64,000 nucleotides of DNA, taken from the NCBI GenBank assembly GCA_024672275.1, contig GCA_024672275.1_4536.1; one strand, given 5' to 3'. How positions within the stretch are numbered: the first letter of the stretch is position 1; each line of letters opens with the position of its first letter. The position numbers and the translations under genes are program-made. This DNA is from a phage. Shown here piece after piece: positions 36,451-64,000 of the stretch. The notes under the pieces were generated by a model. It was not told where the DNA came from. It was given only the letters and a program-made list of their open reading frames with translations, and did not search any database.

Positions 36451-36451
36451 A

Positions 36452-36796
36452 TTATTTCTCCTTCTTAAGTGTAATGTTGGTAACTTCTAAATCTACTTCC
36501 ACCATATTTGTATCTGGCGGGATGCAATGAGTATATCCTCGTTGTGCTAGTGATCCATTAATACAGATCGCACTGTTTGTGGAATTTTTAATGAACACCA
36601 AGTTACGGTAGGTATCCAACCCTGCGTCTTCATAGGCATCATAATACATGAATGTGGCCCCTATGCCAAGATCTTCGAAAGCAATAGGTAAATCCTGACA
36701 CTTTTCTTCTTGAATATTGAATCTAAACACGCATACCTCCTCTACCAATTTTGAAGCCCAAATCGTAAGCTTCCTTAGTGATCTTTTGTAACTCAC
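36452..36796 (-). CDS. small hypothetical protein, paralog of 35161..35430 (true start probably downstream of track start)
   Basis: Conserved region aligns with the 89-aa paralog; the track ORF overlaps the upstream gene by ~74 nt. Confidence 0.35.
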   Translation of the reverse strand: MSYKRSLRKLTIWASKLVEEVCVFRFNIQEEKCQDLPIAFEDLGIGATFMYYDAYEDAGLDTYRNLVFIKNSTNSAICINGSLAQRGYTHCIPPDTNMVEVDLEVTNITLKKEK

Positions 36797-37286
36797 TTAT
36801 AGGAAGTGTTACAAGAGGATCATCTTCTTCAATTTCCATCTTGTCATCTTCTGTTTCAATGAGAGTATTATGCACTTTGTGATAAGGGTTGTCAACACGT
36901 TTAAACTTATTCTTTTCTGTGCTGAAAAAACAATCTGGATCTTCTTCACCATCACCCCAACCTTGGTTAGGATCTCCGTCAGATTGTTCTGTAGGGATTT
37001 CACCTGTAAAGTACTCTTCCAGCACCATAGCAATACCGTCCCTTGGATTTGAGGAATGCATTAAATCACAAACCTTACCCCAATCCATAGCCCATTCGAA
37101 CCGTTCACGAACGCCATTTTCATCCTCCTTTCCAGAGAAAACACAACCATAACTATCATAGTTGCCATACATCTCTTCAATAACAACACCGTCCTTCAAA
37201 AGAAAGAGATAACAAGGTGATCCGTCGAAAGAAGTAGAAAGGGCAGCTTTGCCCGATTCCTTACACAAAAAACTAAAACAACCCAT
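36723..37286 (-). CDS. hypothetical acidic protein (187 aa)
   Basis: ORF; D/E-rich; no motif recognised. Confidence 0.4.
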   Translation of the reverse strand: MGCFSFLCKESGKAALSTSFDGSPCYLFLLKDGVVIEEMYGNYDSYGCVFSGKEDENGVRERFEWAMDWGKVCDLMHSSNPRDGIAMVLEEYFTGEIPTEQSDGDPNQGWGDGEEDPDCFFSTEKNKFKRVDNPYHKVHNTLIETEDDKMEIEEDDPLVTLPISELQKITKEAYDLGFKIGRGGMRV

Positions 37287-37684
37287 TACAAACCCTCCTT
37301 CAGATTATCAAGAGCTACAGTGGTTTCACAAAAGTCTCCATACGTTTTATGATGTTCTAGAAAAGCTTCAGGTCCACCCCAATCATTATCTTGTGTATTC
37401 CAGCCATCAATAAAAGCATCTTCAATGATTGTGATCAGTTCCTGTCGAGTCAACGTAATGGTATCAGGTTTCTGCGTAGTTTCCACACGGAACCCTGGTT
37501 CTTCATAAAAACCTTTAGTTACAATGGACTCTAACTCTTCTGCATCACAGAGGAAGTAGCCACAAAGATAACACCAACCGTCATCATCTTTCATTACTTC
37601 ATAAACTTCACCACTTGCTAACTTGATGAAAAGAGTAGGGTCTGTTACTGTAAGTTTTAAAAGAATACCTGTTGGATTATACAT
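37286..37684 (-). CDS. hypothetical protein (132 aa)
   Basis: ORF with ATGA coupling to the downstream gene. Confidence 0.4.
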   Translation of the reverse strand: MYNPTGILLKLTVTDPTLFIKLASGEVYEVMKDDDGWCYLCGYFLCDAEELESIVTKGFYEEPGFRVETTQKPDTITLTRQELITIIEDAFIDGWNTQDNDWGGPEAFLEHHKTYGDFCETTVALDNLKEGL

Positions 37685-37849
37685 CTTCTTCCTCCTCTAA
37701 AATATGGAACCCGTAATTACAATAATCCTGAAAGGTTTCGTGTGCAAGATCTTCTATATCCTCTTGAGACATATCATCTTCAATTTCGATATCCACAACC
37801 TCATTGCATCCACACCAAGCAGTTTCAATATTCACTCGTAATATTTTCA

Positions 37850-38047
37850 TTACTCCTCCTCCTCATTGAAGTCAATATCTGCAAGGAGTTCGAATTTACG
37901 GAAGTTACGACAACCTTCATAAATATAACAATCACGACAAACTGCTAGAACACTTGGGGGATATATGCCTCCCATCGGCGCGAATCGTTTTTCGTCATCA
38001 TAACGGACACCAATGTCCTCATCAATTATATAGATACGGATTCTCAT
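37850..38047 (-). CDS. small hypothetical protein, Cys-containing, acidic C-terminus (65 aa)
   Basis: ORF overlapping the telA-like stop (ATGA). Confidence 0.3.
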   Translation of the reverse strand: MRIRIYIIDEDIGVRYDDEKRFAPMGGIYPPSVLAVCRDCYIYEGCRNFRKFELLADIDFNEEEE

Positions 38048-39156
38048 TTACCAAGCCCTCGTTTCACAGCAGCTACCATCCCGTCTTCCAGAGATTGAAC
38101 TTCGTTAATATAATCAACACGAGCAGCACGGGCTTCCGTATTGATGCGGTTAGTTTCTTCCAACATCTTAACCAAGTTTTCCTGATCGTGACGCAGAGTT
38201 TCAATATCCAACACTTGACGGTTAGCCAGTGCTGCTGCTTCGATCTGATTCTGTGTGGCAAGATCGCTACCCAGTTTAATTGCCAGGTTAAATTCATCAA
38301 GAACGTTATTCTGCGTCTCTGCTGCTTTCATTTGACGTAAGCTCTCGATATACATTGAGAAGTTAGCAGAGTAAGCAGGAATAACATTATTTACTATATT
38401 ACGCGCAGATCGCATTAAGCTTGCAGAAACTTTTTGCATACCTTGTACACGCGGTCCCATTTGGACACACAGTAGGCGCAATGCCTTTAAATCTGCAATA
38501 CGAATCTCCAGAAGATCCAAAGTATCTCGGATCACTTGTCGCTGTTCTACTGCATCTTCTGGAAGAGCAGCCAAAGCTTGTTCTTCTTTTTCATAGGTTG
38601 CTGTTAGAAGCTGCATATCTCGGTTCAAACTTGCAGCATATTGTCCAATAGCTTGATGTAGCTTTTCAAGATATACCAAGGAATCTTCTTCTTTGCGAAT
38701 ATCCATTTGAAGGTTCTTTACCAACTCTTCAATACGGTTATTAACATTATCAAACTCCCCAAACAGGTCTTCTTTCATACCCATAACTTTTTTAATGAGT
38801 TTAGTAATACCCTTGCTTTGTTTAATAGAGTTTGGATCAAGTTGTTTTGCCTGTTTAATCAAAGCTGTGAGTCGTTCACTCATCTGATCGCCTTGATTAC
38901 TACGTTGATGTTTTAACACCTCGGCATTCAAGGAACGCAAGGTTGTTCCTGCCTCTGCCCCAATCTCTTCAATCTCTTGTCGGGTCATAGAAGGCAAAAC
39001 TGGAACTTCTTGCGGTGCCGCTGGTGCATAAACAGGACTGGCATCTAACACGCTTGGAGCGAATACAGATTTACTTGCATCTGTTGTTGCAGCGAATACA
39101 CTCATTTCAGACTTCTTCTGACCACCAGTAGCTGCTTTTAAAAATGGACTTGTCAT
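38044..39156 (-). CDS. TelA-like (toxic anion resistance / KlaA family) protein (370 aa)
   Basis: Size and long helical, charged composition consistent with TelA; co-localised with TerD/TerC/vWA; no sharp motif, so the call leans on context. Confidence 0.5.
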   Translation of the reverse strand: MTSPFLKAATGGQKKSEMSVFAATTDASKSVFAPSVLDASPVYAPAAPQEVPVLPSMTRQEIEEIGAEAGTTLRSLNAEVLKHQRSNQGDQMSERLTALIKQAKQLDPNSIKQSKGITKLIKKVMGMKEDLFGEFDNVNNRIEELVKNLQMDIRKEEDSLVYLEKLHQAIGQYAASLNRDMQLLTATYEKEEQALAALPEDAVEQRQVIRDTLDLLEIRIADLKALRLLCVQMGPRVQGMQKVSASLMRSARNIVNNVIPAYSANFSMYIESLRQMKAAETQNNVLDEFNLAIKLGSDLATQNQIEAAALANRQVLDIETLRHDQENLVKMLEETNRINTEARAARVDYINEVQSLEDGMVAAVKRGLGK

Positions 39157-39743
39157 TCTTCATTCTCCTCTTCTGCATCTCTTATATATGGTGAAACACC
39201 GTACTCTTTAGCTACTTTAACCCAATCATCCCATTTATACAACCATAATTTTCCTTCAGTTCCTTCTTTATCTGATTTCAACCACATGTTAGGTTGCTTG
39301 CCTGGGTACATGCGATTAGGTTTACGATTATAACCTCTAACACATCTTGTCGCAAACCTATCTACCAGAACAAGAACATATTTATATTCGTGGTTCAACG
39401 GCTCTTTGGAAGTGGCTTTAGGATTAGCCCCTAACTCTGCTGCCAGTTTTTGCCAATGAGCACCGTGTCTACTAAACTTACCCATACAACCATCAATAGC
39501 ATGAGCAATTTCGTGCTTCATTGTATCCACGATCATGTCTCTTGTGGAGTTCTTATGCAAGTGCCAATTTACAACAACAATTTTATCTCGGTAGTTGCAC
39601 CAACCGAAAGAGTTATTCACTTTGTTTCTAACACAAGCTTTATATCCTGCTTCATGTAACATGTTGTAGTAAACAGGAAAATCTTCTTTTATTTCCTGCA
39701 TCACTTCCCACCACAAGAGTTGCAAGTCTCTCTCGGTATGCAT
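39153..39743 (-). CDS. SprT-like zinc metalloprotease domain protein (196 aa)
   Basis: HExxH in KHEIAHAIDGCMGKFSRHGAHW. Confidence 0.5.
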   Translation of the reverse strand: MHTERDLQLLWWEVMQEIKEDFPVYYNMLHEAGYKACVRNKVNNSFGWCNYRDKIVVVNWHLHKNSTRDMIVDTMKHEIAHAIDGCMGKFSRHGAHWQKLAAELGANPKATSKEPLNHEYKYVLVLVDRFATRCVRGYNRKPNRMYPGKQPNMWLKSDKEGTEGKLWLYKWDDWVKVAKEYGVSPYIRDAEEENEE

Positions 39744-39746
39744 AAC

Positions 39747-40340
39747 TTACACCTTAAAAGCGAAATGCGTGGTCGTGGCTTCAAAATCAGGGCCAGATAA
39801 ACTTGCACTGAAATCTGAAATATTTGTAATTAAAAAGCTTTTATGCATACCTAACACAGCCACGCTTTCAATATCTTCTACTAACATTTCAATCATGTTA
39901 GAAACATGGCTGAACGTATAGTTTTGTTTTTTGATGGTGTAGAAAGAAAGACTCCCACCTGCTGTATAAGATACCTCTTCAAAATCTTTAATCGTATATT
40001 GTGTGCCATCAGTAAAGAAAATGGTAGCTTTATTAGTAGCACGTTTCTTGTTTTTTGGTCCTTTTTTACGTTTACTGCGAGTAGGCAAACCGTTTGGGAA
40101 CACCGTAGCTACAAATTCTTCAGGGGAAACCTCCTTACCGAAATCATAACCGTAAGAAACAGCGTCTATAAACTCGTCGTCTTCATTTTTAAAATAATGA
40201 AAATAGGGCCAATTTGAGAGATTATCAAGCATCTTATGCTCATCCACAGCAGAGAACGTATCTCTCAAAGCACGTGTGATTTGTAAAGCATTAGGCAAAC
40301 TTTTAACACCTGTAATGGAAGTACGAATAGAAATTGTCAT
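39747..40340 (-). CDS. hypothetical protein (197 aa)
   Basis: ORF; no motif recognised. Confidence 0.4.
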   Translation of the reverse strand: MTISIRTSITGVKSLPNALQITRALRDTFSAVDEHKMLDNLSNWPYFHYFKNEDDEFIDAVSYGYDFGKEVSPEEFVATVFPNGLPTRSKRKKGPKNKKRATNKATIFFTDGTQYTIKDFEEVSYTAGGSLSFYTIKKQNYTFSHVSNMIEMLVEDIESVAVLGMHKSFLITNISDFSASLSGPDFEATTTHFAFKV

Positions 40341-40354
40341 TGTTTTTCTCCTTA

Positions 40355-40792
40355 TTAACGTCGCTTGCTACGAGATGAACTCTTTTTACTTAAAGGGCTA
40401 TTGTAAGATTTACGAGTTGTATAGCTACTATTTGTTTTAAAAGTCTGTCTCGGCTTTTCATAAGTTTTTATCTCTTGTTTAGGCTTACCATAAAAATTAG
40501 TTTTCGGTTTAGGTGTATTATAATGCTTATTAATAATCGTTCTGTTATCGTTATAATCCCCACTGCTACGATTACTACCGCCACTCATCATATGCCCTAA
40601 CAACATACCTGTAGCAAACTCACCAACACCGCTACTACTAGAACCGCCACCATTGTTGATAATAGTTGTATCTCCGTCAGATCCTTGTTGAGCGTATTGT
40701 TGAGGAGGTTGTTGGTATTGTGCAGGATTTGTTTCATCCTCGCAAGCTGTTAAAAAGATACAACCAATTAAAATCAGGGCTAGTTTTTTCAT
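40355..40792 (-). CDS. lipoprotein, G/S/N/K-rich (start adjusted to Met26 of track ORF)
   Basis: Signal peptide + lipobox MKKLALILIGCIFLTAC; low-complexity GGGSSSSG region. Confidence 0.5.
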   Translation of the reverse strand: MKKLALILIGCIFLTACEDETNPAQYQQPPQQYAQQGSDGDTTIINNGGGSSSSGVGEFATGMLLGHMMSGGSNRSSGDYNDNRTIINKHYNTPKPKTNFYGKPKQEIKTYEKPRQTFKTNSSYTTRKSYNSPLSKKSSSRSKRR

Positions 40793-40979
40793 ATTTGCTT
40801 TCCTCGTTTTGGCTATTAATACATCTGTGTTTGAAATCTCCAGAGAAGCAATAAAGTTGCTCTCCATCTCGGTATAAACTCACTTTACTGCCGTTGATTA
40901 CGCTTGTCAATACAAAAATTACAACAAACAACCCTATTGCAAAACAGATATTTTCAAACACAACCAACAAGTATTTCAT
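40734..40979 (-). CDS. possible small membrane protein (81 aa)
   Basis: Hydrophobic helix ICFAIGLFVVIFVLTSVI; overlaps the lipoprotein gene start region, so it is uncertain. Confidence 0.25.
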   Translation of the reverse strand: MKYLLVVFENICFAIGLFVVIFVLTSVINGSKVSLYRDGEQLYCFSGDFKHRCINSQNEESKYEKTSPDFNWLYLFNSLRG

Positions 40980-41326
40980 TTTAAAAATACCTCATCATCA
41001 GTTTCATTATCCCAGAAGAACAAATCCCAACCATTCGGATCATTCCATTTGGCTGCTGGAGAAGTCCATATTTGTTCGATATCAATATTCAAAACTTCAC
41101 CGTTTCGTTTTGAAACAGCTTTAGTTAATTCCCAACGAGACACAGGCTCCACTTCCCCTGAACCGCTCCCACAACAAGCTACCACATTAGGAGGCAAATT
41201 AATTGGATCTTTGGTCACAATCATAACGCTTACCCCAGGGTAAACTTTTGAAAGATAATCTAAAACGTAATCCACATCGCCAGATAAATCCCAAATAAGT
41301 TCTTGAATTTCATCAAAATTATTCAT
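40976..41326 (-). CDS. hypothetical protein (116 aa)
   Basis: ORF with SD AGGAGA. Confidence 0.4.
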   Translation of the reverse strand: MNNFDEIQELIWDLSGDVDYVLDYLSKVYPGVSVMIVTKDPINLPPNVVACCGSGSGEVEPVSRWELTKAVSKRNGEVLNIDIEQIWTSPAAKWNDPNGWDLFFWDNETDDEVFLK

Positions 41327-41337
41327 AAGTCTCTCCT

Positions 41338-41362
41338 ATAAAATAGCCTCCCGAAGGAGGCT
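41338..41362 (-). terminator. terminator hairpin AGCCTCC-TTCG-GGAGGCT + AUUUUAU after terC
   Basis: Minus-strand GC stem with 4-nt loop followed by a U-rich tract, immediately before the next RBS. Confidence 0.45.
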
Positions 41363-41368
41363 CATCTA

Positions 41369-42343
41369 TTAAACAGCAGCTTCTTCTTTTTCAGGGAAGA
41401 TAAAGCTTGCAATAACACCAAGAGCTAATGTGCCTAGAACAATCATCAGACTTACGTTAGGGGAAATATCATGCGGGAAGAATGACCACTTGGCATGAAG
41501 TGTTTCACCGAACGGGTGATACATAAGTTTAGCACCAACAAACACCAGAACCACAGCAACAGCTTTCTCTAAGTGAACCAGATATTTCACAGCTACACTT
41601 AACACAAAGAAAAGTGCACGTAAACCAAGAACAGCCATCAGCATTGCAGAATAAACTAGCAGAGGTTCTTGTGTCACACCGATCACAGCCGGAACTGAAT
41701 CAAAAGAGAAGACAATATCTGTAAGCTCAATAACAAACACACAAAGAAGAGCAGGAGTTGCATATTTAATACCATTCTTAATGGTAATGAACTTTTCACC
41801 ATCTAGTGCATTGTGCACAGGCAGAACTTTACCTACTAAACGAACAGCCCAATGCTTAGAGTAATCAATATCCTCTTCTTCGTCACCACCTTTGATGATA
41901 GCCACGGCAGACCAAGCTACAATCAAACCGAACAACACTTGGACCGACCAATGAAGGTTAAACAAAGCGGTCCCTGCTGCAACAAAAATACCTCGGAAGA
42001 CAATGGCTCCTGCAATCCCCCAAAGTAAAATCTTATGTTGGAGATGTGTGCTCTTAATTCCAAAGCTTGCAAAAATTGCCATGAATACCATCAGGTTATC
42101 TACAGAAAGACTCTTTTCCAACACATAGCCACTTAGGAAAAGCGCGGCAAACTCTTTACCATGTTCTACCCAAATGAATGCGTAATATCCTAAAGCTAAA
42201 GCAATCCAAAAAACAGACCAAAGCAAAGCAGATTTAATTCCAATTTCTTTATTCTCTTTATGACCAAAGAAATCGATACCAATAGACAATGCCAAAATAC
42301 TAACTAAAACAACTACATCAATAATTGGGAAACCGAGTTGCAT
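41369..42343 (-). CDS. terC: TerC-family integral membrane protein (324 aa)
   Basis: Multiple TM helices; TerC signature LEKSLSVDNLMVFMAIF and FSFDSVPAVIG. Confidence 0.8.
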   Translation of the reverse strand: MQLGFPIIDVVVLVSILALSIGIDFFGHKENKEIGIKSALLWSVFWIALALGYYAFIWVEHGKEFAALFLSGYVLEKSLSVDNLMVFMAIFASFGIKSTHLQHKILLWGIAGAIVFRGIFVAAGTALFNLHWSVQVLFGLIVAWSAVAIIKGGDEEEDIDYSKHWAVRLVGKVLPVHNALDGEKFITIKNGIKYATPALLCVFVIELTDIVFSFDSVPAVIGVTQEPLLVYSAMLMAVLGLRALFFVLSVAVKYLVHLEKAVAVVLVFVGAKLMYHPFGETLHAKWSFFPHDISPNVSLMIVLGTLALGVIASFIFPEKEEAAV

Positions 42344-42422
42344 TCTTTTCTCCTCTCTTTGCGGGGAATTATTCCCCGCTTTATGTGATATATCTTACTC
42401 TTTTTAAGAACTATGTCAACAC

Positions 42423-42644
42423 TTATTTTGTTGAATGAGAGGAAAAGATTCCTCGTAATACCGCCAGAATAAACGAAACACAAACCACGGTCCAGAAGGT
42501 TACTGGGACAGTGATATCTGCATGACCCATAACTTCAGCAACATAGTTGTAAGCCAGCAACAGTAACCAAGCTGGAATCAAACTAAGCATAAAAGCAATA
42601 ACAAAAAAGCTTACCACCGCAACAATACCTGCAAAAACACCCAT
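42423..42644 (-). CDS. small membrane protein, 2 TM (73 aa)
   Basis: Two hydrophobic helices. Confidence 0.4.
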   Translation of the reverse strand: MGVFAGIVAVVSFFVIAFMLSLIPAWLLLLAYNYVAEVMGHADITVPVTFWTVVCVSFILAVLRGIFSSHSTK

Positions 42645-42656
42645 ACTAATCTCCTC

Positions 42657-43130
42657 TTAAAGTTTATAAATAGTCACATCGTGACCTGTTTTTACTAAAG
42701 TTTCTTCAATCATCACTTGGATGATAGCCCAATTACCTCCAGCATATCCAGCGCCAATCATAGGTAAGCCGATCTTACATTTTTGGTCACGGAGAAGCAA
42801 ATCGTTAGCCATAGCTATTAGTGCATCGTAAAGTGCATCATAGTCCAACTGACGACCTTTAGCATTATATCCGTAACGGTATTGCCCGTATAGATTATAT
42901 ACCAAAGGGTCTGATTGTTCGTCTGGCACCCCTAAACTAAAAGAACCTAACTTACTTTGATCACCAGCCATTGTGTCTAAATCTGCCGCATATGCATAAG
43001 GGAATGCTCGTTTAATTTGCGGAGCAATTCCTGCTCCCATATTACACATACAATTGCAACAATGAGCAATAACAGTTACTTCACCTGCTTTAGCGGCATC
43101 AATAAGATTACCTGTTTTCATTTTAAGCAT
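42657..43130 (-). CDS. macro domain protein (start adjusted to Met23 of track ORF)
   Basis: VIAHCCNCMCNMGAGIA...IGLPMIGAGYAGG fits the macro fold; SD AAGGAG before the adjusted ATG. Confidence 0.6.
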   Translation of the reverse strand: MLKMKTGNLIDAAKAGEVTVIAHCCNCMCNMGAGIAPQIKRAFPYAYAADLDTMAGDQSKLGSFSLGVPDEQSDPLVYNLYGQYRYGYNAKGRQLDYDALYDALIAMANDLLLRDQKCKIGLPMIGAGYAGGNWAIIQVMIEETLVKTGHDVTIYKL

Positions 43131-43143
43131 TTTTAGCTCCTTA

Positions 43144-43971
43144 TTACAGAATGTGTTGTTTTGTGTAACGATCCAAGAATTCAAAGTTTTCAACATACTT
43201 TGAAATTCGGTTGTAACCTTCTCCCAAACATCCGAAGAAAAGTTGCTCTACATAGTAGTGTGGCAATTGGCTAAGAATGATTTTGAAGTCTTCATGATTT
43301 TGGCCCATAAGATACTTAATAGGACGAACAAGACACTGTGCATCACGTTCTTCATTAATCATTTTAACAAACGCTTCTGGTGTATTAATGTAGTTAAAAT
43401 TCAGTTTAGCTTCGGTATCTGCTTGATTACCTTCATATTTTGCAAAATACAAGAAGTAAACATCATTTTTAACTTGATTTTCATCAAGGATCTCAATCAG
43501 TTTGTCTTCATGAGTTCCAGTGATATTTACATCATCAATAAACACAAGCTTCTTATCACCCCAGAATTCTTTGTTGCAGTAGAATGTATCCCCATCAATA
43601 AGTTTCTTACGACTAGCTTTATCCAAGAAACCATAATCGTTGATATAGCTAACTTTACGATGAATAATATCTAGTTCTGCTGAACAACCTTGATCATATT
43701 GTGATTGCAACATATTAAAGTAATTAATAAAATGATCTGTCATCATTGTTGCAGCATTATGCACATGGTTGTAAGGAGAAGGAATGATAACAAATTGTTC
43801 CCCAATATGTTTCATTGCCACTTGAGCAAAAAACTGAAGTGCCAATTCTTTACCCATACGACGCGCAGCCTGGTTACTACCAAATTTCAATTTTGAATAG
43901 TCTTTGATATCAAAAGTAGCAGTTTCCAGGTCATCAAATTTATTTGCAAAAATTTGAGTTTGATTACGCAT
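43144..43971 (-). CDS. phosphoribosyltransferase (type I PRTase)-like protein (275 aa)
   Basis: PRPP-binding motif KKLVFIDDVNITGTHEDK. Confidence 0.5.
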   Translation of the reverse strand: MRNQTQIFANKFDDLETATFDIKDYSKLKFGSNQAARRMGKELALQFFAQVAMKHIGEQFVIIPSPYNHVHNAATMMTDHFINYFNMLQSQYDQGCSAELDIIHRKVSYINDYGFLDKASRKKLIDGDTFYCNKEFWGDKKLVFIDDVNITGTHEDKLIEILDENQVKNDVYFLYFAKYEGNQADTEAKLNFNYINTPEAFVKMINEERDAQCLVRPIKYLMGQNHEDFKIILSQLPHYYVEQLFFGCLGEGYNRISKYVENFEFLDRYTKQHIL

Positions 43972-44620
43972 TTACAATTTCTCCTCTTTTAAGTTTCTCT
44001 AGTAAGTCGTTAGGGTTCTTAATATGACAGAAGTTAAATCCTAAGTCAACACATTTTCCATCATATTCTTCACTATCGCCTACGTGCAACACTTCGTGCC
44101 CTAACAGAGGGATCGGAGAATACGTGAGCGTGCGAGCAAAGAATCGCGGATCTGGTTTACAAAGTAAAGCTTCATCCGAAAAATGGGTGAACTCAAAACA
44201 ATTCCAACTATCAAACTTACAAGCACGACGCAGGATATCCCCTGATATGAAGTTGGTGTTACTCTTAATACTCAAATCATAACGCCCCGAAAGATACAGC
44301 AAGTACATCGGCAGATCTACGGCTACGTGTGGTGGAAACTTAAGGAACCACTGTTCACACTCGAAACGAAGCTTTGCAGACTTCCAAGGCGTTATCCCAA
44401 GTTCAGAACCAAGTCTTTCCCAGGCGTATGCTGCACACTCGGCTCGGCCTTGAAGTGCTGCATTATCCAGTTCCTTTTTGATCTTTTTATAAGCTACTCT
44501 TGCTTCCACTTCCGTAATATCTCCATATTTTGCGATAGTCCAGGCTCGCATGTCTGCGTAATTGGAGTTTGCTGTGATCAGTGTGTTCCATACATCAAAA
44601 GAGATATGTTTAATAGTCAT
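43964..44620 (-). CDS. HAD-superfamily hydrolase-like protein (218 aa)
   Basis: Motif I-like ISFDVWNTL, motif IV-like LHVGDSEEYD. Confidence 0.5.
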   Translation of the reverse strand: MTIKHISFDVWNTLITANSNYADMRAWTIAKYGDITEVEARVAYKKIKKELDNAALQGRAECAAYAWERLGSELGITPWKSAKLRFECEQWFLKFPPHVAVDLPMYLLYLSGRYDLSIKSNTNFISGDILRRACKFDSWNCFEFTHFSDEALLCKPDPRFFARTLTYSPIPLLGHEVLHVGDSEEYDGKCVDLGFNFCHIKNPNDLLEKLKRGEIVNA

Positions 44621-44621
44621 A

Positions 44622-45227
44622 TTAAGCCCACCATGCGTCTAAGTTAAGATTACTGTCCACTACCACTTGTTCTATGTGGTAGCCTTTTATCTGTATCCCA
44701 CTGTTCAAGAGCATCTCATACGCTTCATTGAAACGCAACTTATCTTCTGCGGAATATAAGCGAGCATTATAAAATCGGTAATCAATTTCTTCAGCATTAG
44801 AAGAAATACGGAAGAAGTTTGTTTCTACTTCGGGGTCACTTGCTGAAGTCTTAATGTGAACTTCTCCATAATTTTCTTTACTTAGATCCATGAAAAGAAC
44901 ACAGGCAACATGTTTAAACATTCGTTCCAGTTTGTAACGAACAACATTGAAACCTGCATTCTCAAGTTTTTCTACACACTGCAACATTAAAGTAGTGTCG
45001 AGATCGCTTTGATACTTTGTTAACATACGATCACGTTGAGACTTTGTATCCCGATGTAAATCAATTGTTGTGCATTTGGCACCAATAATCTTAGCTGCTT
45101 TCATCAACTCTTCAGAACTAACGTTAGATAAAGTAAGATGAAAATGAGCTTTCCACACTTTTTTAGCAGGGACACCAAAAGATTTATCCCCACTATTCGG
45201 CATGTTGACTACTACACTATGTTGCAT
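44622..45227 (-). CDS. hypothetical protein (201 aa)
   Basis: ORF; no motif recognised; adjacent to the HAD/PRTase genes. Confidence 0.4.
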   Translation of the reverse strand: MQHSVVVNMPNSGDKSFGVPAKKVWKAHFHLTLSNVSSEELMKAAKIIGAKCTTIDLHRDTKSQRDRMLTKYQSDLDTTLMLQCVEKLENAGFNVVRYKLERMFKHVACVLFMDLSKENYGEVHIKTSASDPEVETNFFRISSNAEEIDYRFYNARLYSAEDKLRFNEAYEMLLNSGIQIKGYHIEQVVVDSNLNLDAWWA

Positions 45228-59035: not shown

Positions 59036-59392
59036 ATGAAAAAATTAATCTTAGCCACATTGCTGGCTACCGTAAGCTTCACCACTTACGCTCAAAAATT
59101 TGTAGCAGTTAAAACGGATATTGGTAAAGATGTTGTGATCACAGGCAACAAGTTTTACTATACATCTGGAAATGGTATTCTAGAAGAGTGCAAAGATGTT
59201 GAGGCATATACAGGAAAAGAAGATAACACGGAACGTCCTTTTTATTCGATTATAGCTACTTGCAAAAATGAAATAGTAGCTATTAAACAATACAAAGATG
59301 CACCTGGAGGAGAGTACTTATTAATCAAGAATATTAAGAGTGAAAAAACTGCAAAGTTTACAGTAATTATTTTAAAAGGAGAAACGTTCTAA
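59036..59392 (+). CDS. secreted hypothetical protein (start adjusted to Met11 of track ORF)
   Basis: SD AGGAGGG; signal peptide MKKLILATLLATVSFTTYAQ. Confidence 0.45.
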   Translation: MKKLILATLLATVSFTTYAQKFVAVKTDIGKDVVITGNKFYYTSGNGILEECKDVEAYTGKEDNTERPFYSIIATCKNEIVAIKQYKDAPGGEYLLIKNIKSEKTAKFTVIILKGETF

Positions 59393-60531
59393 TGAAATAC
59401 ACTATTTTTGGAGATGTGGCTGTTGTAAATAAGGAATATGGTGTTGAAGCTAATAAACTTCCTGCTGGAGTTTGGGTTGTCAACTGCGATCCGCACGGTA
59501 ACTACTCTTTAGTGCGTGGCGAAAGTTTCTCTCTTCCGAACACTCTTTATGGGGAAACTAAAGACCGCGCCGCACATGTTATTAAAACATTTGCTCGTCG
59601 TAGTAAAGAAGGTAAAAATACTGGGGTGTTACTGACAGGGACAAAGGGCAGTGGTAAGACGATGTTAGCTAAACTGATTAGCATGTCCCTAATGTCCACA
59701 GAAGGTTTAGGTATTCCAACCATTTTGGTGACACAGCCTTACACAGATGCTGGATTCTTAGAATTTATGAGTAAAATTACAGATCGTGCTGTTGTTTTAT
59801 TTGACGAGTTTGATAAAGTGTACGCTAAGAAAGAAGATCAGGAAGCACTGTTGACCTTGTTGGATGGAACAGGAAGTGGAAATAAACTTTACATCCTCAC
59901 TAAAAATAGTGGCTATATCTCAGAATATTTTGTAAACCGTCCTAGTCGTATCTACTACAGTTTCAATTACGATAAACTGTCTAGTGAAACTATGTTAGAT
60001 TACTTGGATAAGAACTTGGTAAATAAAAAGCACGTAGATAACTTCCAACGTTTATGGGATGTTAGCACAGAGTTGTCTTTCGATGTTATTCAAGGCATTG
60101 TAGAAGAATTGAATTTCTATCCAAAAATGACTTTTAAAGAATGTCTTGAAATGATGGGTATTTCTTTAGGGAACGATGCTAAATGGAATGTGGCTTCTAT
60201 CGTAGCTAATGGCAAAACCTTGAAGGTGAATTGGATCAATAACTGGCACGACTTCACCCCTACTAAGTTTTTGTCGGGTGCTTGTTCCCTGAACATCTAT
60301 CTACAAAGTTTGAAAGATGATGAAGTGGAAGCAATGGAAACCAACAGTTATGTTATCCTGGATGAAGATGGTGATCCACATATTGATCTATGTGCAACGG
60401 CTGATGGTCTAACTTGTGATCTGATTGAAGGTGGTAAGATTCTGGTTATGAGCACTACACCAGGAAACACTCTGCGAGTGGTTCTGGAGCCTGTAACACA
60501 ACGTTCCACTACCCTGGGTAGCGTATTCTGA
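59392..60531 (+). CDS. AAA-type ATPase (379 aa)
   Basis: Walker A LLTGTKGSGKT and Walker B VVLFDEFDK. Confidence 0.6.
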   Translation: MKYTIFGDVAVVNKEYGVEANKLPAGVWVVNCDPHGNYSLVRGESFSLPNTLYGETKDRAAHVIKTFARRSKEGKNTGVLLTGTKGSGKTMLAKLISMSLMSTEGLGIPTILVTQPYTDAGFLEFMSKITDRAVVLFDEFDKVYAKKEDQEALLTLLDGTGSGNKLYILTKNSGYISEYFVNRPSRIYYSFNYDKLSSETMLDYLDKNLVNKKHVDNFQRLWDVSTELSFDVIQGIVEELNFYPKMTFKECLEMMGISLGNDAKWNVASIVANGKTLKVNWINNWHDFTPTKFLSGACSLNIYLQSLKDDEVEAMETNSYVILDEDGDPHIDLCATADGLTCDLIEGGKILVMSTTPGNTLRVVLEPVTQRSTTLGSVF

Positions 60532-60572: not shown

Positions 60573-60609
60573 TATTGATTTCAGTTTAATAGGGAGATAA
60601 TTGTTAGAT

Positions 60610-61599
60610 ATGCCAGTAAAGAAGAGTATTGAACAATATATTGAAGAGTGTCAACCTATTGCTGCTGCTAAAGGGATTGAGATTATTGGAATTGTTGAGC
60701 CGTTTACAGGACAACACACGAAAATGATCAATCGTTGTCAGTATGCTCATGAATGGAACACTACAACATTTAAAAACTTTAAAACTGGTCGTGCTGGTTG
60801 TCCTGTCTGTGCAATTGGGAAAGGATTTGGGAAAGGAGGTAAGACAGACGATCAGCACATAAAAGATTTCATTAACACAGGAAAGTTTAAACCTGGCACC
60901 ATTTTCACCAATACAGGCAAACGTAAAGGGAGTCATATTCTCTGGATGGTTGAATGTCCTGTTTGTTCTCATGATGAATACGTACAAGCAGGAGTGTGTG
61001 ATGGTAAATTTTACATTGCAGGGAACGATCTTAAAAAAGGGATTATCCCTTGTCGTTGTACTAGAGTTTACCGTTATACAAAAGATCAGATCACTTACAA
61101 GGTGAGAAAAGGTTTAGAAAGTAAAGGATATATCTGGATGGAGTGGATTAGTAAACCTTCCTCAACAGGAGAGTTTAAATATGGATGTAAGGATCACGGG
61201 GAGCAAATAGGGAATGCTGACCACTTATTACATAAGGGGCGTGGTTGTCCGCAGTGTAAAGGGCATACACAACAACAGGCATACATCAACTATATCTACG
61301 ATGAACAAAATCTTCTCTGTGCTTTGAAGTTTGGTATTGCCAATAGTAGTGATCGCCGTATCAAAGAACAAAATAGTCATAATGTGTTTACTATGAAACA
61401 GAGCCAAGTGTGGCACTTCCCTACTGTGAAGCAATGCAAAGATGCAGAAAAGCGTTGTAAGCGTGTCCTTCACACGGAAGCAGTGAGCAAATATTCTATG
61501 CCAGATGGCTACACAGAAACAGTAGAGTTATCTTGCATGGCCTCAATACAAAACATTTATAAACTTTATGGTGGAACATTACAGGAGGAAACATGTTAG
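60610..61599 (+). CDS. multi-zinc-ribbon protein with HNH-like CxxH...CPxC repeats (start uncertain)
   Basis: Repeated units CQYAHEW...GCPVC, ECPVCSHDEY, CKDHGEQIGNADHLLHKGRGCPQC; track start is a non-ATG codon, first ATG at Met4. Confidence 0.4.
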   Translation: MPVKKSIEQYIEECQPIAAAKGIEIIGIVEPFTGQHTKMINRCQYAHEWNTTTFKNFKTGRAGCPVCAIGKGFGKGGKTDDQHIKDFINTGKFKPGTIFTNTGKRKGSHILWMVECPVCSHDEYVQAGVCDGKFYIAGNDLKKGIIPCRCTRVYRYTKDQITYKVRKGLESKGYIWMEWISKPSSTGEFKYGCKDHGEQIGNADHLLHKGRGCPQCKGHTQQQAYINYIYDEQNLLCALKFGIANSSDRRIKEQNSHNVFTMKQSQVWHFPTVKQCKDAEKRCKRVLHTEAVSKYSMPDGYTETVELSCMASIQNIYKLYGGTLQEETC

Positions 61600-61958
61600 T
61601 TGACGTTCAAATTATGCGCAACGAAAGAATGGACTTCTTTGAAGCAGTAGAGAAACATCTGATTCGATGGGACTATGAATTTGTTCCTGCTGGATGTGGA
61701 CCAGTAGAGCATTTAGCGGAAGACGACGATGTATACATGATCATTCGTCAAGTGTACCAGACAGACCAGTGTGAAGAAACTCCCGAACTGATTTTGTTTG
61801 AGTGTAAAGATCTTGCAAAATATTTTGACTATGGCGGAAAAGAGGGTCATAATCTCTCCAGATACAATAAACGTCTACTTATCTTAGACTACATGCGGAA
61901 CAACAAACACAAACTCATCGACGCAGACGCAGTTTATGGCTACTGGTGGATGGATTAA
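61593..61958 (+). CDS. hypothetical protein (121 aa)
   Basis: ORF overlapping the upstream stop. Confidence 0.4.
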   Translation: MLVDVQIMRNERMDFFEAVEKHLIRWDYEFVPAGCGPVEHLAEDDDVYMIIRQVYQTDQCEETPELILFECKDLAKYFDYGGKEGHNLSRYNKRLLILDYMRNNKHKLIDADAVYGYWWMD

Positions 61959-61971
61959 CAAAGGAGAAACT

Positions 61972-62160
61972 ATGGCACGTTTAGCAGATAACCCTGTATT
62001 CTACCCCGTTCTTGATCTTTATGATGAATTGACATATGTTGTGGAGCGGTATAACTACAATGAAGATCTTTTGGAGACAAACCTTAAAGTGGTCCTGATG
62101 AAAGCCTATCAGAAAGGGCAACGTGAAATTTTGGAGAGTATGAAAAATGCGAATAACTGA
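61972..62160 (+). CDS. small hypothetical protein (start adjusted to Met13 of track ORF)
   Basis: SD AAGGAGA precedes the internal ATG. Confidence 0.35.
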   Translation: MARLADNPVFYPVLDLYDELTYVVERYNYNEDLLETNLKVVLMKAYQKGQREILESMKNANN

Positions 62161-62689
62161 TGATTATGTATTCTTCTTTTCACATAAAGATGTGTTTAGT
62201 AATTGGTATATTGCACCCTTTACAGAAACCGAACCAGGTTACAATCAAACATTTAATTGTGTCGAACAATATATGATGTGGCGTAAAGCTTTGCTTTTTA
62301 ATGACCACAACACTGCACAGGCTATTCTGACTCATAGTTTGATACGGAAAGATGAGAAGATCCAAGCTTATTACAAACGTATGGGTAGGGCAGTGTCGGA
62401 TTTTGATAACAACGTATGGGAAGAGAACCGTGAGCGTATTGTTATGCGAGGTTTATGCTTGAAATATGTACAGAATCCAGATTTGTATGCAGACTTACAC
62501 CTTTACCAATACAAAACGTTTGTTGAAGCAAGCCCCTACGATAAGGTTTACGGAATTGGAATGGGGATGTATGAACCAGGGGTGCTAAACCCTGCCACCT
62601 GGAAAGGGCAGAATCTTTTAGGCAAATATCATAATAAACTGATCGAAATACTTTTCCCAGACAAAATACCGCAAAGACGATATTTGTGA
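62147..62689 (+). CDS. NADAR (YbiA-like, DUF1768) family protein (180 aa)
   Basis: FFFSHKDVFSNWYIAPF, FNCVEQYMMWRKALLF and IVMRGLCLKYVQNPDL match the NADAR pattern. Confidence 0.65.
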   Translation: MRITDDYVFFFSHKDVFSNWYIAPFTETEPGYNQTFNCVEQYMMWRKALLFNDHNTAQAILTHSLIRKDEKIQAYYKRMGRAVSDFDNNVWEENRERIVMRGLCLKYVQNPDLYADLHLYQYKTFVEASPYDKVYGIGMGMYEPGVLNPATWKGQNLLGKYHNKLIEILFPDKIPQRRYL

Positions 62690-62779: not shown

Positions 62780-62930
62780 GTCCTATACAAACACTTGTCT
62801 TTTTCAGTTTGCATCACTGGGATTCGATCTGAGTGGGTTCCTGAAGGTCTGCCAATAAGATTAAAGGTTATCTCAAATTCCCATTACCTATTATCTCAAA
62901 AATCCCTCAAATTATTTAAACTTTTTAAGA

Positions 62931-63120
62931 ATTTACAAAAGTGAAAGTTGAAAACCAAAATTTAAAGTTTAGGAAAATTATCTTAAAATGTCAGATACAA
63001 AACAAAACTCAAAAGTCAAGGAAAATTTTAAAAATTTTGCGCGCCCACAGTATTTAAAGTTTTTTTGCTTTTACAAAAATGAAAGTACAAAAGCAAAATT
63101 TAAAGTTTACAAAAATTTAT
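62931..63120. repeat. AT-rich imperfect direct repeats (~46 bp, ~80% identical; core AAAATTTAAAGTTTA), iteron-like
   Basis: TACAAAAGTGAAAGTTGAAAACCAAAATTTAAAGTTTAGGAAAATT vs TACAAAAATGAAAGTACAAAAGCAAAATTTAAAGTTTACAAAAATT, with related words between; approximate coordinates. Confidence 0.5.
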
Positions 63121-63129
63121 GCAGATGGG

Positions 63130-63235
63130 AATGAGAAGAGTTCTCATATGGAAATGCAAATGATAATGATTCGCATTTAAGTTTATAAATGAGATTGATT
63201 CTTATTTAATAAGGTAAATGATAATCATTCTCATC
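63130..63235. promoter_or_regulatory. array of palindromic / Fur-box-like operator sites
   Basis: ATGAGAAGAGTTCTCAT palindrome; AAATGATAATGATTCGCATTT and AAATGATAATCATTCTCATC resemble the Fur box GATAATGATAATCATTATC; approximate coordinates. Confidence 0.4.
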
Positions 63236-63493
63236 TAGAGAATGACGCGCAGGGGCGGTGTTTGTCTCGCGCTCCCGTGTCCCCTCGCCATGTAATAAGA
63301 ATAACAGATCCAGCCAGGAAAGCAAGCGATTATTTTATCTTTACATTTCTTTACAAATATATAGCGCCCAGCCTACCGGCGATCAACCTTCCAACCAGTG
63401 CCCTGGTATGTTAGCCCCGCCTTTACGCCGTGGGGTGGCGCTTCCTCTTCTGTATGTAAAACAGTATAAGCCCGATCCCTGGGCTTGTCAAGA

Positions 63494-63760
63494 TTATTTT
63501 TTGTTTTCTTGCCAGGAAAGGACACCTAACCAAAAATGCATATCGCCCCGCGCCCCTGGTGGGATCTTGCTTTCCCCGCCGCCACTGCAAGCCCATAAAT
63601 AACCATCAGCGAACGGATCAAAGTTTTCTATTTCTTCCACCTTATGATCGCCCAGGTTGAGAACTGTTTCAACCTTTAAGCCCGTTGCGCTTGCTACCTG
63701 GTGCACCGTGCCGCCTTGCCAGCCCAATGAGTGCATAAGGTGTAATGTAGTATTTGTCAT
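63494..63760 (-). CDS. hypothetical protein in the GC-richer terminal segment (88 aa); coding status uncertain
   Basis: ORF with weak SD; N-terminal half looks protein-like, C-terminal half is G/P-rich. Confidence 0.25.
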   Translation of the reverse strand: MTNTTLHLMHSLGWQGGTVHQVASATGLKVETVLNLGDHKVEEIENFDPFADGYLWACSGGGESKIPPGARGDMHFWLGVLSWQENKK

Positions 63761-64000
63761 GGTGTCGCCCTTTCTTTGTTGTGCGCCCTAGTTGGCGCGG
63801 TAGAAAGATGATAGCCTTTTCCTTTATATATAGCAAGCAAAAAGAAAATAAAAAAGATTGAAAAAGTGGTTGACGTTCCTCACCTGGTAGCGTAGTATTC
63901 ATCTTGTCGAGGGGGGCGCGGCACAACGACAATAAACAACAGGCGGGCGCAATGCAGGACGGGCAAAGGTGAGGATCTCCATAATCCACCGTCAACCAAC

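What the first reader, a model, noticed from the sequence alone, without database searches (positions are those of the whole stretch)
62147..62689. NADAR-family protein plus a separate macro-domain gene: candidate anti-ADP-ribosylation countermeasures
The 180-aa ORF matches the NADAR (YbiA-like) pattern; NADAR proteins can reverse DarT-type ADP-ribosylation of DNA. A macro domain, the other main ADP-ribose-removing fold, is encoded at 42657..43130 in the Ter cluster. Two independent ADP-ribose-processing folds in one phage suggest pressure from host ADP-ribosylating defences.
Basis: partly seen in the sequence, partly recalled or inferred. Interest (0 to 1): 0.55.

Follow-up and report, generated by a model that had tools for sequence, protein, structure and literature searches.

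The report
Phage NADAR and macrodomain anti-defence genes
This E. coli phage carries two unlinked ADP-ribose-removing enzymes, a NADAR protein and a macrodomain protein, whose close relatives in other phages are already shown to defeat bacterial NAD+-based defences, so the finding is real but ordinary.

Summary
Both genes exist exactly where stated. The window is a phAPEC8-like coliphage (Phapecoctavirus). ORF 62147-62689(+) is a clear NADAR protein (Pfam 7.8e-36). All ADP-ribose-contacting and catalytic residues are conserved. It is 59% identical to AdfN-Bas60 of the sister genus and lies in the same gene order. AdfN-Bas60 was shown experimentally to neutralise the DarT1 toxin and to rescue phages from DarTG1.

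ORF 42657-43130(-) is a true macrodomain. Pfam support is marginal, but PHROG 335 scores 1e-55 and the AlphaFold model (pLDDT 92) matches TARG1, DarG, Poa1p and SCO6735. It belongs to a phage family with two tested members:
- T4 Tk.4 (AdfM), needed to resist DarTG2.
- Vibrio phage Gary Adpp, an ADPR-1''-phosphate phosphatase that helps rebuild NAD+.

The window protein is nearer to Adpp in sequence. However, the phage lacks the NAD+-rebuilding genes Adpp works with, and the active-site residues are identical in all three proteins, so its substrate is unresolved.

Its position beside the Ter-cluster HAD-PRTase pair is specific to this phage lineage. Verdict: a new member of known kinds, of low-to-moderate interest.

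The parts
62147..62689 (+). NADAR-domain gene (180 aa), ortholog of AdfN-Bas60. Predicted guanine-ADP-ribose DNA glycohydrolase. Key residues: E40, K47, R81, W91, R95, E127, D132.
   Evidence: Pfam NADAR 7.8e-36. 59% identity, E 2e-69, to bas60_0111. Residues mapped through the 8BAU alignment and Schuller 2023.
62133..62138 (+). Shine-Dalgarno-like GGAGAG, 8 nt upstream of the NADAR ATG. The NADAR start overlaps the end of the preceding 74-aa ORF (61936-62160), so it is the last gene of a + strand operon.
   Evidence: Sequence read directly; ORF list.
59392..60531 (+). AAA-type ATPase (phrog_2376). It serves as a synteny anchor: the same ATPase lies upstream of the NADAR gene in Justusliebigvirus phages Bas60 and inny.
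42657..43130 (-). Macrodomain gene (157 aa) of the phage Tk.4/AdfM-Adpp family (PHROG 335). It has a Q-type (SCO6735-like) active site: H23, N26, G34, N79, Q83, G126, G128, W134.
43137..43142 (-). AAGGAG ribosome-binding site, 6 nt before the macro ATG (43130) and 1 nt after the PRTase stop codon (43144-43146). This indicates co-transcription with the upstream HAD-PRTase pair.
   Evidence: Sequence read directly.
43144..43971 (-). PRTase_3 (ComF-like type I phosphoribosyltransferase), the immediate upstream neighbour of the macro gene. Ter-associated module.
   Evidence: Pfam PF15610 2.1e-41. AlphaFold model pLDDT 92 with HGPRT/ComF-like fold matches.
43964..44620 (-). HAD-family hydrolase whose end overlaps the PRTase_3 start by 8 nt. 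It is the invariable partner of PRTase_3 (18 of 18 loci).
41369..42343 (-). TerC membrane protein, downstream of the macro gene. It marks the Ter cluster.
   Evidence: Pfam TerC 3e-40.

Best explanation
The window comes from a phAPEC8-like (Phapecoctavirus) E. coli myophage that carries two separate, unlinked anti-defence enzymes aimed at host NAD+-consuming immunity.

(1) The 180-aa NADAR protein is an orphan antitoxin-like AdfN. When a host DarT1 toxin ADP-ribosylates guanines in single-stranded phage DNA and blocks replication, the enzyme binds the ADP-ribose and cleaves the N-glycosidic ribose-guanine bond. K47, R81, W91 and R95 are predicted to bind the diphosphate. E40 and E127 are predicted to act at the distal ribose. 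The result is clean DNA.

(2) The 157-aa macrodomain is a Q-type ADP-ribosyl hydrolase of the phage Tk.4/AdfM-Adpp family. This phage has no NAD+ rebuilding pathway for an Adpp-type phosphatase to feed. Its most likely benefit is therefore the one shown for T4 Tk.4 and for SCO6735: removal of ADP-ribose from thymidines modified by DarT2. It probably also retains ADPR-1''-phosphate phosphatase activity.

What is shown: domain identity, residue conservation, orthology and synteny to tested proteins, and absence of NARP genes. What is inferred: the substrates and the in vivo role of the window proteins themselves.
For: Phage identity: 93-99% nucleotide identity to Phapecoctavirus genomes.

NADAR:
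- Pfam 7.8e-36.
- 59% identity over the full length to Bas60 bas60_0111, in the same order ATPase ... NADAR, non-coding repeats, then a 267-nt minus-strand ORF.
- AdfN-Bas60 neutralises DarT1 without other phage factors and rescues RB69, T5 and Bas25 on DarTG1 hosts, but does not rescue on DarTG2 hosts (PMC11825919).
- Equivalents of PnNADAR E43, K50, R79, W89, R93, E125 and D130 are all conserved.
- The only PDB sequence hit is PnNADAR, an enzyme active on guanine-ADPr.
- It hits the same PADLOC model as AdfN-Bas60.

Macro:
- High-confidence macro fold.
- Same PHROG as T4 Tk.4, with 37% identity to it. Deleting tk.4 sensitises T4 to DarTG2.
- H/N/Q/G active-site residues match those of SCO6735, which cleaves thymidine-ADPr DNA and rescues cells from DarT. 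The longer basic loop after Q83 is also shared.
- No Adps, Namat, NAMPT or Prs homologue is found in the window or in the genome of the 98-99% identical phage EF1-1.
Against: Neither window protein has been tested.

NADAR:
- It also passes NCBIfam's cutoff for the YbiA-type riboflavin-intermediate N-glycosidase model, and it carries the YbiA-type Glu127.
- NADARs with in vitro guanine-ADPr activity do not always protect in cells. YbiA and T4 gp30.3 failed in a plasmid rescue assay.

Macro:
- It is more similar to the ADPR-1''P phosphatase Adpp (41%, 109 bits) and to macros next to NARP1 or in NAD islands (48%, 120-142 bits) than to Tk.4 (72 bits).
- 25 of the 80 nearest viral loci place the macro beside NAMPT/Namat or Prs/Adps genes.
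- The tree does not resolve which tested relative it groups with (55 versus 37 of 100 bootstraps).
- Enzymatic DNA de-ADP-ribosylation by Tk.4 itself was inferred in that preprint, not shown.
Confidence: 0.6

Rival explanations
1. The macrodomain is an Adpp-type ADPR-1''-phosphate phosphatase, or more broadly a hydrolase of soluble ADP-ribose derivatives. It would act on the products of RES-type NAD+ phosphorylases such as aRES, not on ADP-ribosylated DNA. On this reading it counters NAD+ depletion or toxic metabolites rather than ADP-ribosylation.
For: 41% full-length identity to Vibrio phage Gary Adpp (KNV71_gp137), which converts ADPR-1P to ADPR and is required for NARP1-AP to beat aRES. 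48% identity to the NARP1-adjacent macro of Pseudomonas phage PHB09. 25 of 80 nearest viral loci have NAMPT/Namat or Prs/Adps within 6 kb. Iyer et al. 2022 argued that phage Macro and NADAR domains mainly target soluble ADPr derivatives.
Against: The window and the near-identical EF1-1 genome contain no Adps, Namat, NAMPT or Prs. ADPR made from ADPR-1P therefore could not be turned back into NAD+ by any known phage route. The active-site residues are identical to those of T4 Tk.4/AdfM and SCO6735, so sequence cannot favour this reading. ADPR-1''P phosphatase activity is a common side activity of macrodomains, as noted in the aRES preprint's own discussion.
Confidence: 0.35
2. The NADAR protein is a housekeeping YbiA-type N-glycosidase that destroys reactive riboflavin-pathway intermediates or other small ribosyl compounds. 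This is what several GenBank records imply with 'GTP cyclohydrolase II' or 'YbiA-like N-glycosidase'.
For: It passes the NCBIfam TIGR02464 equivalog-domain cutoff (113 against 73.7 bits). It carries the Glu (E127) that defines the YbiA branch in de Souza and Aravind's scheme, as quoted.
Against: No riboflavin or dinG-ybiB context exists in the window. E. coli YbiA (PDB 2B3W) is not detected even at E<=10, whereas PnNADAR is found at 3.8e-15. The 59%-identical ortholog AdfN-Bas60 was shown to counter DarT1 and was placed by its authors with non-YbiA bacterial NADARs. PnNADAR has the same Glu and is active on guanine-ADPr.
Confidence: 0.07
3. The macrodomain is an integral enzyme of the Ter-associated HAD-PRTase_3 pathway. 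It would process a phosphoribosyl or ADP-ribosyl intermediate of the predicted nucleoside-like Ter metabolite.
For: HAD, PRTase_3 and macro are arranged head to tail with overlapping or 13-nt junctions. This order is kept in relatives down to 49-52% macro identity.
Against: Across 18 PRTase_3 loci, HAD is always present. The macro occurs only in the 5 loci with at least 63% PRTase identity, which belong to the same phage lineage, and in 0 of 13 more distant loci. Eight of those 13 carry TerC, TerD or TelA. Only 4 of 80 macro loci have PRTase_3. The adjacency therefore looks inherited, not functional.
Confidence: 0.08
4. The macrodomain partners the phage's own sirtuin. It would hydrolyse O-acetyl-ADP-ribose or reverse Sir2-made ADP-ribosylation, so it serves phage metabolism or self-protection rather than counter-defence.
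For: The closest relative, EF1-1, encodes a Sir2 outside this window. 15 of 80 related macro loci have a SIR2 gene within a few kb. Many database homologues are labelled O-acetyl-ADP-ribose deacetylase.
Against: In this phage lineage Sir2 lies about 100 kb from the macro gene and is not in the window. The label is an automatic name. The tested family members act against DarTG2 and aRES.
Confidence: 0.07

Closest known systems
AdfN-Bas60 (bas60_0111, Escherichia phage PaulScherrer, Justusliebigvirus); Johannesman et al. 2025, Nat Commun
   Same: 59% identical over the full length. Same position after the ATPase gene and before a repeat-rich non-coding stretch. Same subfamily of phages (Stephanstirmvirinae). 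Same PADLOC and Pfam hits. All catalytic residues are shared.
   Different: Different genus. Two small ORFs are inserted upstream in the window. The window protein lacks a 6-residue insertion and has a different C-terminal tail. It has not been tested.
AdfN-T4 (gp30.3) and DarG1 NADAR antitoxins
   Same: Same superfamily, and the same predicted chemistry on guanine-ADP-ribose.
   Different: No detectable pairwise similarity in PDB searches: only PnNADAR is found. T4-type NADARs have His and DarG1 has Asp where the window protein has Glu127. T4 AdfN needs the phage context to work, whereas AdfN-Bas60 does not.
Phytophthora nicotianae NADAR (PDB 8BAU)
   Same: Best solved relative (3.8e-15). E43, K50, R79, W89, R93, E125 and D130 are all matched.
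   Different: It is a eukaryotic stand-alone protein. W133 is Tyr135 in the window protein. The physiological substrate of PnNADAR is unknown.
T4 Tk.4 = AdfM (anti-DarT factor macrodomain; HIDEN-SEQ preprint 2025)
   Same: Same PHROG 335. 37% identity over 124 residues. Identical H/N/Q/G/W active-site positions. Both are stand-alone proteins in an E. coli myophage that also carries an AdfN and lacks NARP1.
   Different: Tk.4 lacks the 6-residue loop after the conserved Gln. It scores lower (72 bits) than the Adpp-type relatives.
Adpp (Vibrio phage Gary KNV71_gp137), the ADPR-1''P phosphatase of NARP1-AP (Osterman et al. preprint 2026)
   Same: 41% identity end to end, the same loop length after Gln83, and the same active-site residues.
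   Different: Adpp sits between Adps and Namat and works by feeding them. The window phage has neither gene.
SCO6735 / BT1257 (ALC1-like, Gln-type macrodomains), with DarG and TARG1
   Same: Best solved sequence relatives (5e-13). Gln replaces the catalytic Lys, His and Asn are conserved, and the basic 'mobile loop' is extended. SCO6735 cleaves thymidine-ADPr DNA.
   Different: Only 28-32% identity. Val25 of SCO6735 is Cys24 here. TARG1 K84/D125 and DarG K80 are absent. There is no DarT-binding domain as in DarG.
Chimallivirus AdfM (PhiKZ gp104)
   Same: A phage-encoded orphan macrodomain that removes DarT2 ADP-ribose from DNA.
   Different: It is DarG-like with a catalytic Lys (K78), and it is imported into the phage nucleus. 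It was not compared directly here.

Membership tests
NADAR superfamily (Pfam PF08719) | Profile match above the curated threshold | tested here: met
   124.2 bits against a cutoff of 35.1, E=7.8e-36, covering residues 11-161.
NADAR superfamily (Pfam PF08719) | Conserved Glu and Lys of helix 1 (PnNADAR E43, K50) and an acidic residue at the E125/D171 position | tested here: met
   E40, K47 and E127 are invariant in the alignment with AdfN-Bas60, jumbo-phage NADARs and PnNADAR.
NADAR superfamily (Pfam PF08719) | NADAR (YbiA-like) alpha-helical fold | not tested
   No structure model was made for this protein. Only a sequence match to PDB 8BAU is available.
AdfN (phage anti-DarT1 NADAR) | Orthology to an experimentally validated AdfN | tested here: met
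   59% identity, E 2e-69, to bas60_0111, with conserved gene order. The function of AdfN-Bas60 is reported in PMC11825919.
AdfN (phage anti-DarT1 NADAR) | Orphan: no cognate DarT next to it | tested here: met
   The neighbours are an ATPase, a CapR-domain endonuclease and two small unknown ORFs. No ART domain is found among them.
AdfN (phage anti-DarT1 NADAR) | Removes guanine-linked ADP-ribose from DNA and rescues from DarT1/DarTG1 | not testable with these tools
   Needs toxin-rescue, plaque and gel-shift assays.
YbiA-type riboflavin-intermediate N-glycosidase (TIGR02464) | Profile match above the curated cutoff | tested here: met
   113.1 bits against 73.7.
YbiA-type riboflavin-intermediate N-glycosidase (TIGR02464) | Riboflavin-pathway fusion or dinG-ybiB operon context, and closeness to E. 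coli YbiA | tested here: not met
   No such genes lie near it. YbiA (2B3W) is not detected at E<=10 in the PDB search.
Macro domain (Pfam PF01661) | Profile match and macro fold | tested here: met
   Pfam 23.0 bits against 22 is marginal. phrog_335 scores 1e-55. The AF2 model has pLDDT 91.9, and Foldseek gives TM 0.75-0.82 to TARG1, BT1257, DarG and Poa1p.
AdfM / T4 Tk.4 (phage anti-DarT2 macrodomain) | Homology to Tk.4 with a shared active site | tested here: met
   Same PHROG. 37% identity over 124 aa, E 1e-21. H23, N26, G34, N79, Q83, G126, G128 and W134 are identical.
AdfM / T4 Tk.4 (phage anti-DarT2 macrodomain) | Groups with Tk.4 rather than with other subgroups | tested here: inconclusive
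   Neighbour-joining bootstraps: the window groups with Adpp to the exclusion of Tk.4 in 55 of 100, and with Tk.4 to the exclusion of Adpp in 37 of 100.
AdfM / T4 Tk.4 (phage anti-DarT2 macrodomain) | Protects phage from DarTG2 and removes thymidine-ADPr | not testable with these tools
   Needs a knockout on DarTG2 hosts and oligonucleotide assays.
Adpp (NARP1-AP ADPR-1''P phosphatase) | Homology to Gary Adpp | tested here: met
   41% identity over 157 aa, E 4e-36.
Adpp (NARP1-AP ADPR-1''P phosphatase) | Encoded in or with a NARP1 operon (Adps plus Namat) | tested here: not met
   tblastn with Adps, Namat, NAMPT and Prs queries found nothing in the window or in EF1-1, apart from about 2.5 kb of that record, a stretch that falls within the span the window corresponds to.
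DarG / TARG1-type macrodomain hydrolases | Catalytic Lys (DarG K80, TARG1 K84) and, for TARG1, Asp125 | tested here: not met
   Gln83 and Ala130 occupy these positions. The scores against DarG models are far below cutoff (34 against 250 bits).
SCO6735-type (Gln-type ALC1-like) macrodomains | His24, Asn27, Gln85, Gly128 and the extended mobile loop | tested here: met
   H23, N26, Q83 and G128 are present, and the loop has equal length with R85, K91 and R93. Val25 is Cys24.
Ter-system biosynthetic module (HAD + PRTase_3) | The macro is a regular component of the module | tested here: not met
   HAD accompanies PRTase_3 in 18 of 18 loci. The macro is present in 0 of 13 loci outside the window's own lineage.

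The most novel reading that the evidence does not exclude
The tightly packed HAD-PRTase_3-macro operon, conserved in phAPEC8-like and phi92-like phages, could be a new pathway. In it the macrodomain would process an ADP-ribosyl or phosphoribosyl phosphate intermediate, for example ADPR-1''P from RES-type defences. This would tie the enigmatic Ter system to NAD+/ADP-ribose immunity, possibly as a NARP-independent salvage or signal-destroying route.
Probability: 0.07. Interest if true: 0.6.

Novelty: new member of a known kind. Interest (0 to 1): 0.25.

Why it matters
It adds Phapecoctavirus, a genus often proposed for phage therapy against E. coli, to the phages that probably carry ready-made countermeasures against DarTG1 and possibly against DarTG2 or aRES. 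This bears on predicting host range against strains that carry those defences. It also flags a practical annotation problem: the NADAR gene is labelled 'GTP cyclohydrolase II' and the macro gene 'phosphatase' in public records. Finally, one phage macro family (PHROG 335) now holds members with two different demonstrated roles and identical active-site residues, so the family needs direct substrate profiling. None of this is conceptually new.

Tried and rejected
- The Anantharaman/Aravind 2012 Ter paper could not be read, and the AdfN paper's supplementary tables are not held. Bas60 was instead identified through BLAST and its locus tags.
- I first suspected that AdfN-Bas60 was an rV5-like protein about 41% identical to the window NADAR. 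Reading Maffei 2021 showed that Bas60-62 are phi92-like, which makes it the 59% ortholog.
- I tested whether the HAD next to the window macro is the same HAD_SAK_2 that flanks the macro in jumbo-phage NAD islands. There is no similarity.
- The 201-aa ORF 44622-45227 gave nothing in Pfam, NCBIfam or PDB. My idea that it was a 2H phosphoesterase therefore remains unsupported.
- PRTase_3 gave no PDB sequence hit. Its model matches only generic type I PRTases, so a role as an Adps or Namat analogue could not be supported.
- Fold search, PADLOC and a neighbour-joining tree could not separate the DNA-hydrolase reading from the phosphatase reading of the macro. The support values printed on the rerooted tree are unreliable and were replaced by the direct counts.
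- No tRNA and no Rfam family were found in the window.
It served only for rooting and for the K84/D125 comparison, which the SCO6735 paper confirms independently.
Full report
**Observation.** Both genes are present at the stated coordinates. ORF 62147-62689 (+) encodes 180 aa. Its ATG is preceded by GGAGAG and overlaps the end of the preceding small ORF. It matches Pfam NADAR at E=7.8e-36 (124 bits against a cutoff of 35), phrog_1017 at 7.5e-52 and NCBIfam TIGR02464 above cutoff. That ATG has an AAGGAG 6 nt upstream and lies 13 nt after the stop of the upstream PRTase gene. The longer mechanical ORF to 43196 simply overlaps that gene. Pfam Macro is only just above threshold (23.0 against 22 bits). 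The call is secured by three other results: phrog_335 at 1e-55; PDB sequence hits to SCO6735, BT1257, TARG1 and DarG; and an AlphaFold2 model of pLDDT 91.9 that Foldseek superposes on TARG1, BT1257, DarG, Poa1p and SCO6735 at TM 0.75-0.82. The Ter cluster around it is real: TerD, vWA-TerF, TelA, SprT-like, TerC, PRTase_3 and HAD.

**Source.** The window is 93-99% identical to phAPEC8-like coliphages of the genus Phapecoctavirus (Stephanstirmvirinae). The best match is Escherichia phage EF1-1. Both genes are conserved across about 70 genomes of the genus.

**The NADAR gene.**
- Johannesman et al. (Nat Commun 2025) showed that phages carry orphan NADAR proteins, named AdfN. These remove DarT1-made ADP-ribose from guanines of phage DNA.
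- One of them, AdfN-Bas60, neutralises DarT1 on its own and restores plating of RB69, T5 and Bas25 on DarTG1 hosts, but not on DarTG2 hosts.
- Bas60-62 are phi92-like phages, now placed in Justusliebigvirus, the sister genus of Phapecoctavirus.
- Their NADAR gene, bas60_0111 in phage PaulScherrer, was located by BLAST. It is 59% identical to the window protein over its full length (E 2e-69).
- It occupies the same position: downstream of the same ATPase, last in its operon, and followed by a repeat-rich non-coding stretch and a 267-nt minus-strand ORF.
- The alignment to the ADP-ribose-bound Phytophthora NADAR (8BAU) was read against the residues described by Schuller et al. 2023. It shows E40, K47, R81, W91, R95, E127 and D132 in the places of E43, K50, R79, W89, R93, E125 and D130. 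All are invariant among the phage relatives aligned.
- The 'GTP cyclohydrolase II' and 'YbiA-like N-glycosidase' labels in GenBank stem from the TIGR02464 model. There is no riboflavin context, and E. coli YbiA is not even detected in a PDB search at E<=10.
- I therefore read this gene as an AdfN ortholog. This rests on orthology to a tested protein, not on a test of this protein. A caveat is that in vitro activity and in-cell protection do not always coincide among NADARs.

**The macro gene.**
- Its family, PHROG 335, occurs in about 3,000 phage records, including T4 Tk.4 and macros of rV5-like, FelixO1-like and Vi1-like phages.
- Two members have been characterised.
  - T4 tk.4 was the single hit in a transposon screen on DarTG2. 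A clean deletion sensitised T4 to DarTG2, and the gene was named adfM. T4 thus carries AdfN plus AdfM.
  - The macro between Adps and Namat of Vibrio phage Gary, named Adpp, dephosphorylates ADPR-1''-phosphate. That compound is the product of the aRES NAD+ phosphorylase. Dephosphorylation lets the NARP1 pathway rebuild NAD+.
- The window protein is 41% identical to Adpp end to end (109 bits). It is 48% identical to the NARP1-adjacent macro of Pseudomonas phage PHB09 (142 bits), 45-51% identical to macros in jumbo-phage NAD islands, and 37% identical over 124 residues to Tk.4 (72 bits).
- The positions H23, N26, G34, N79, Q83, G126, G128 and W134 are identical in all of these proteins and in SCO6735.
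- SCO6735 is a Gln-type macrodomain that efficiently cleaves thymidine-linked ADP-ribose from DNA and rescues cells from DarT. There, H24, N27, Q85 and G128 matter.
- The catalytic Lys of DarG and TARG1, and Asp125 of TARG1, are absent.
- Tk.4 and the rV5 macro lack a 6-residue loop after the Gln. The window protein, Adpp and SCO6735 share this loop.
- A bootstrapped neighbour-joining tree does not decide which tested relative the window protein groups with (55 against 37 of 100). Fold search and PADLOC do not decide either.

**Context analysis.**
- Among the 80 best IMG/VR loci that encode a relative of the macro, 25 have NAMPT/Namat and/or Prs/Adps within 6 kb. Twelve have a NADAR gene within 6 kb, usually just upstream, and 15 have a SIR2 gene. 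Only 4 have the HAD-PRTase_3-TerC arrangement of the window (examples).
- Conversely, among 18 loci that encode PRTase_3, the HAD gene is immediately upstream in all 18. The macro is present only in the 5 loci with at least 63% PRTase identity, which is the window's own lineage. It is present in none of the 13 more distant loci, 8 of which carry TerC, TerD or TelA.
- HAD-PRTase_3 is therefore the functional Ter-associated pair. The macro is a lineage-specific neighbour, although it is clearly co-transcribed with them here.
- The window and the near-identical EF1-1 genome contain no Adps, Namat, NAMPT or Prs. An Adpp-type phosphatase would thus have nothing to feed.

**Mechanism proposed.**
- The NADAR protein is made from a + strand operon of small genes. 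It binds the ADP-ribose on guanine N2 of single-stranded phage DNA that DarT1 has modified. It hydrolyses the ribose-base bond and releases ADP-ribose, which unblocks replication. This is inferred from the ortholog and the conserved site.
- The macrodomain most likely removes ADP-ribose from DarT2-modified thymidines, as inferred for T4 Tk.4 and shown for SCO6735. Gln83 would position the distal ribose, and the basic loop (R85, K91, R93) would help bind DNA. ADPR-1''P phosphatase activity is probably present as well.
- I put about 0.8 on the NADAR statement, about 0.5 on the macro acting against DarT2, and about 0.35 on a primarily soluble-metabolite role.

**Comparison and novelty.** Phage AdfN (2025), phage macrodomain AdfM (T4 Tk.4 in 2025; chimallivirus in 2026) and Adpp (2026) are all described. 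The tendency of Macro and NADAR to co-occur in large phages was documented in 2022. The window adds an untested member of each kind in a further genus. It also adds a modest observation: one macro family spans two demonstrated functions with an unchanged active site. This is a new member of a known kind, with interest about 0.25.

**What did not work.** See the separate field. In brief, several literature items were not held, the 201-aa neighbour stayed unassignable, and no computational criterion separated the two candidate macro substrates.

Noticed in passing
window 62800-64000: Downstream of the NADAR gene lies an AT-rich stretch (26-28% GC) with direct repeats. There are two 72-nt copies at 62908 and 63046, and three 29-nt-spaced units at 63130-63237 with small palindromes (AATGAGAAnnnTTCTCAT). 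It is followed by an abrupt rise to 49-50% GC at 63250-64000, against about 39% elsewhere. Related records annotate a 'repeat_region' here. It could be an origin, a regulatory hub or a terminal-repeat boundary.
   Followed up: partly
window 34543-44620 (minus strand): A fairly complete phage Ter cluster: TerD, vWA-TerF-like, TelA, SprT-like protease, TerC, then macro, PRTase_3 and HAD. Across 18 viral loci the HAD gene always lies immediately upstream of PRTase_3, which suggests an obligate enzyme pair.
   Followed up: partly
window 44622-45227 (-): A 201-aa protein (phrog_22504) lies just upstream of the HAD gene. It has no Pfam, NCBIfam or PDB match. It is conserved at 76-78% identity in three related viral contigs but is absent from phi92-like phage alia.
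   Followed up: partly
window 60601-61599 (+): A 332-aa protein with CapR homology domains, treble-clef zinc-finger signatures and a weak GIY-YIG-like (MUG113) match sits between the ATPase and the NADAR operon tail. It is annotated 'endonuclease' and could be a mobile homing-type element. In phi92-like phages a differently sized hypothetical gene occupies this slot.
   Followed up: no
L016, L018, L020 (metagenomic jumbo-phage contigs), about 1-10000: A recurrent 'NAD island': NUDIX, Glu_synthase-like, NAMPT, NADAR, an unknown gene, macro, HAD_SAK_2, SIR2 and PRPP synthetase-like. NADAR and macro are separated by only one gene. The NADAR there is 34% identical to the window's NADAR.
   Followed up: partly
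L006:4734-5450 (Escherichia phage alia): In phi92-like phages the macro gene is annotated as 238 aa. Its roughly 80-aa N-terminal extension overlaps the PRTase stop by 8 nt. In the window the equivalent upstream frame is closed. Whether the extension is real or a start-codon artefact was not checked.
   Followed up: no
public records matched: Records named 'Campylobacter phage' (B15, A150 and others) and 'Acinetobacter phage vB_AbaM_ABPW7' are 93-98% identical to these coliphages, so the host labels look doubtful. The NADAR gene is variously labelled GTP cyclohydrolase II, DNA methyltransferase or hypothetical protein.
   Followed up: no
EF1-1 genome outside the window (L011 22448-23263 and 28292-28873; L101 4179-5664): The closest relative also encodes a Sir2 NAD-dependent enzyme, a DprA-like protein that may be a SLOG domain, and an RNA ligase plus phosphoesterase pair. 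The full phage therefore has a broader NAD+/ADP-ribose and RNA-repair toolkit than the window shows.
   Followed up: partly
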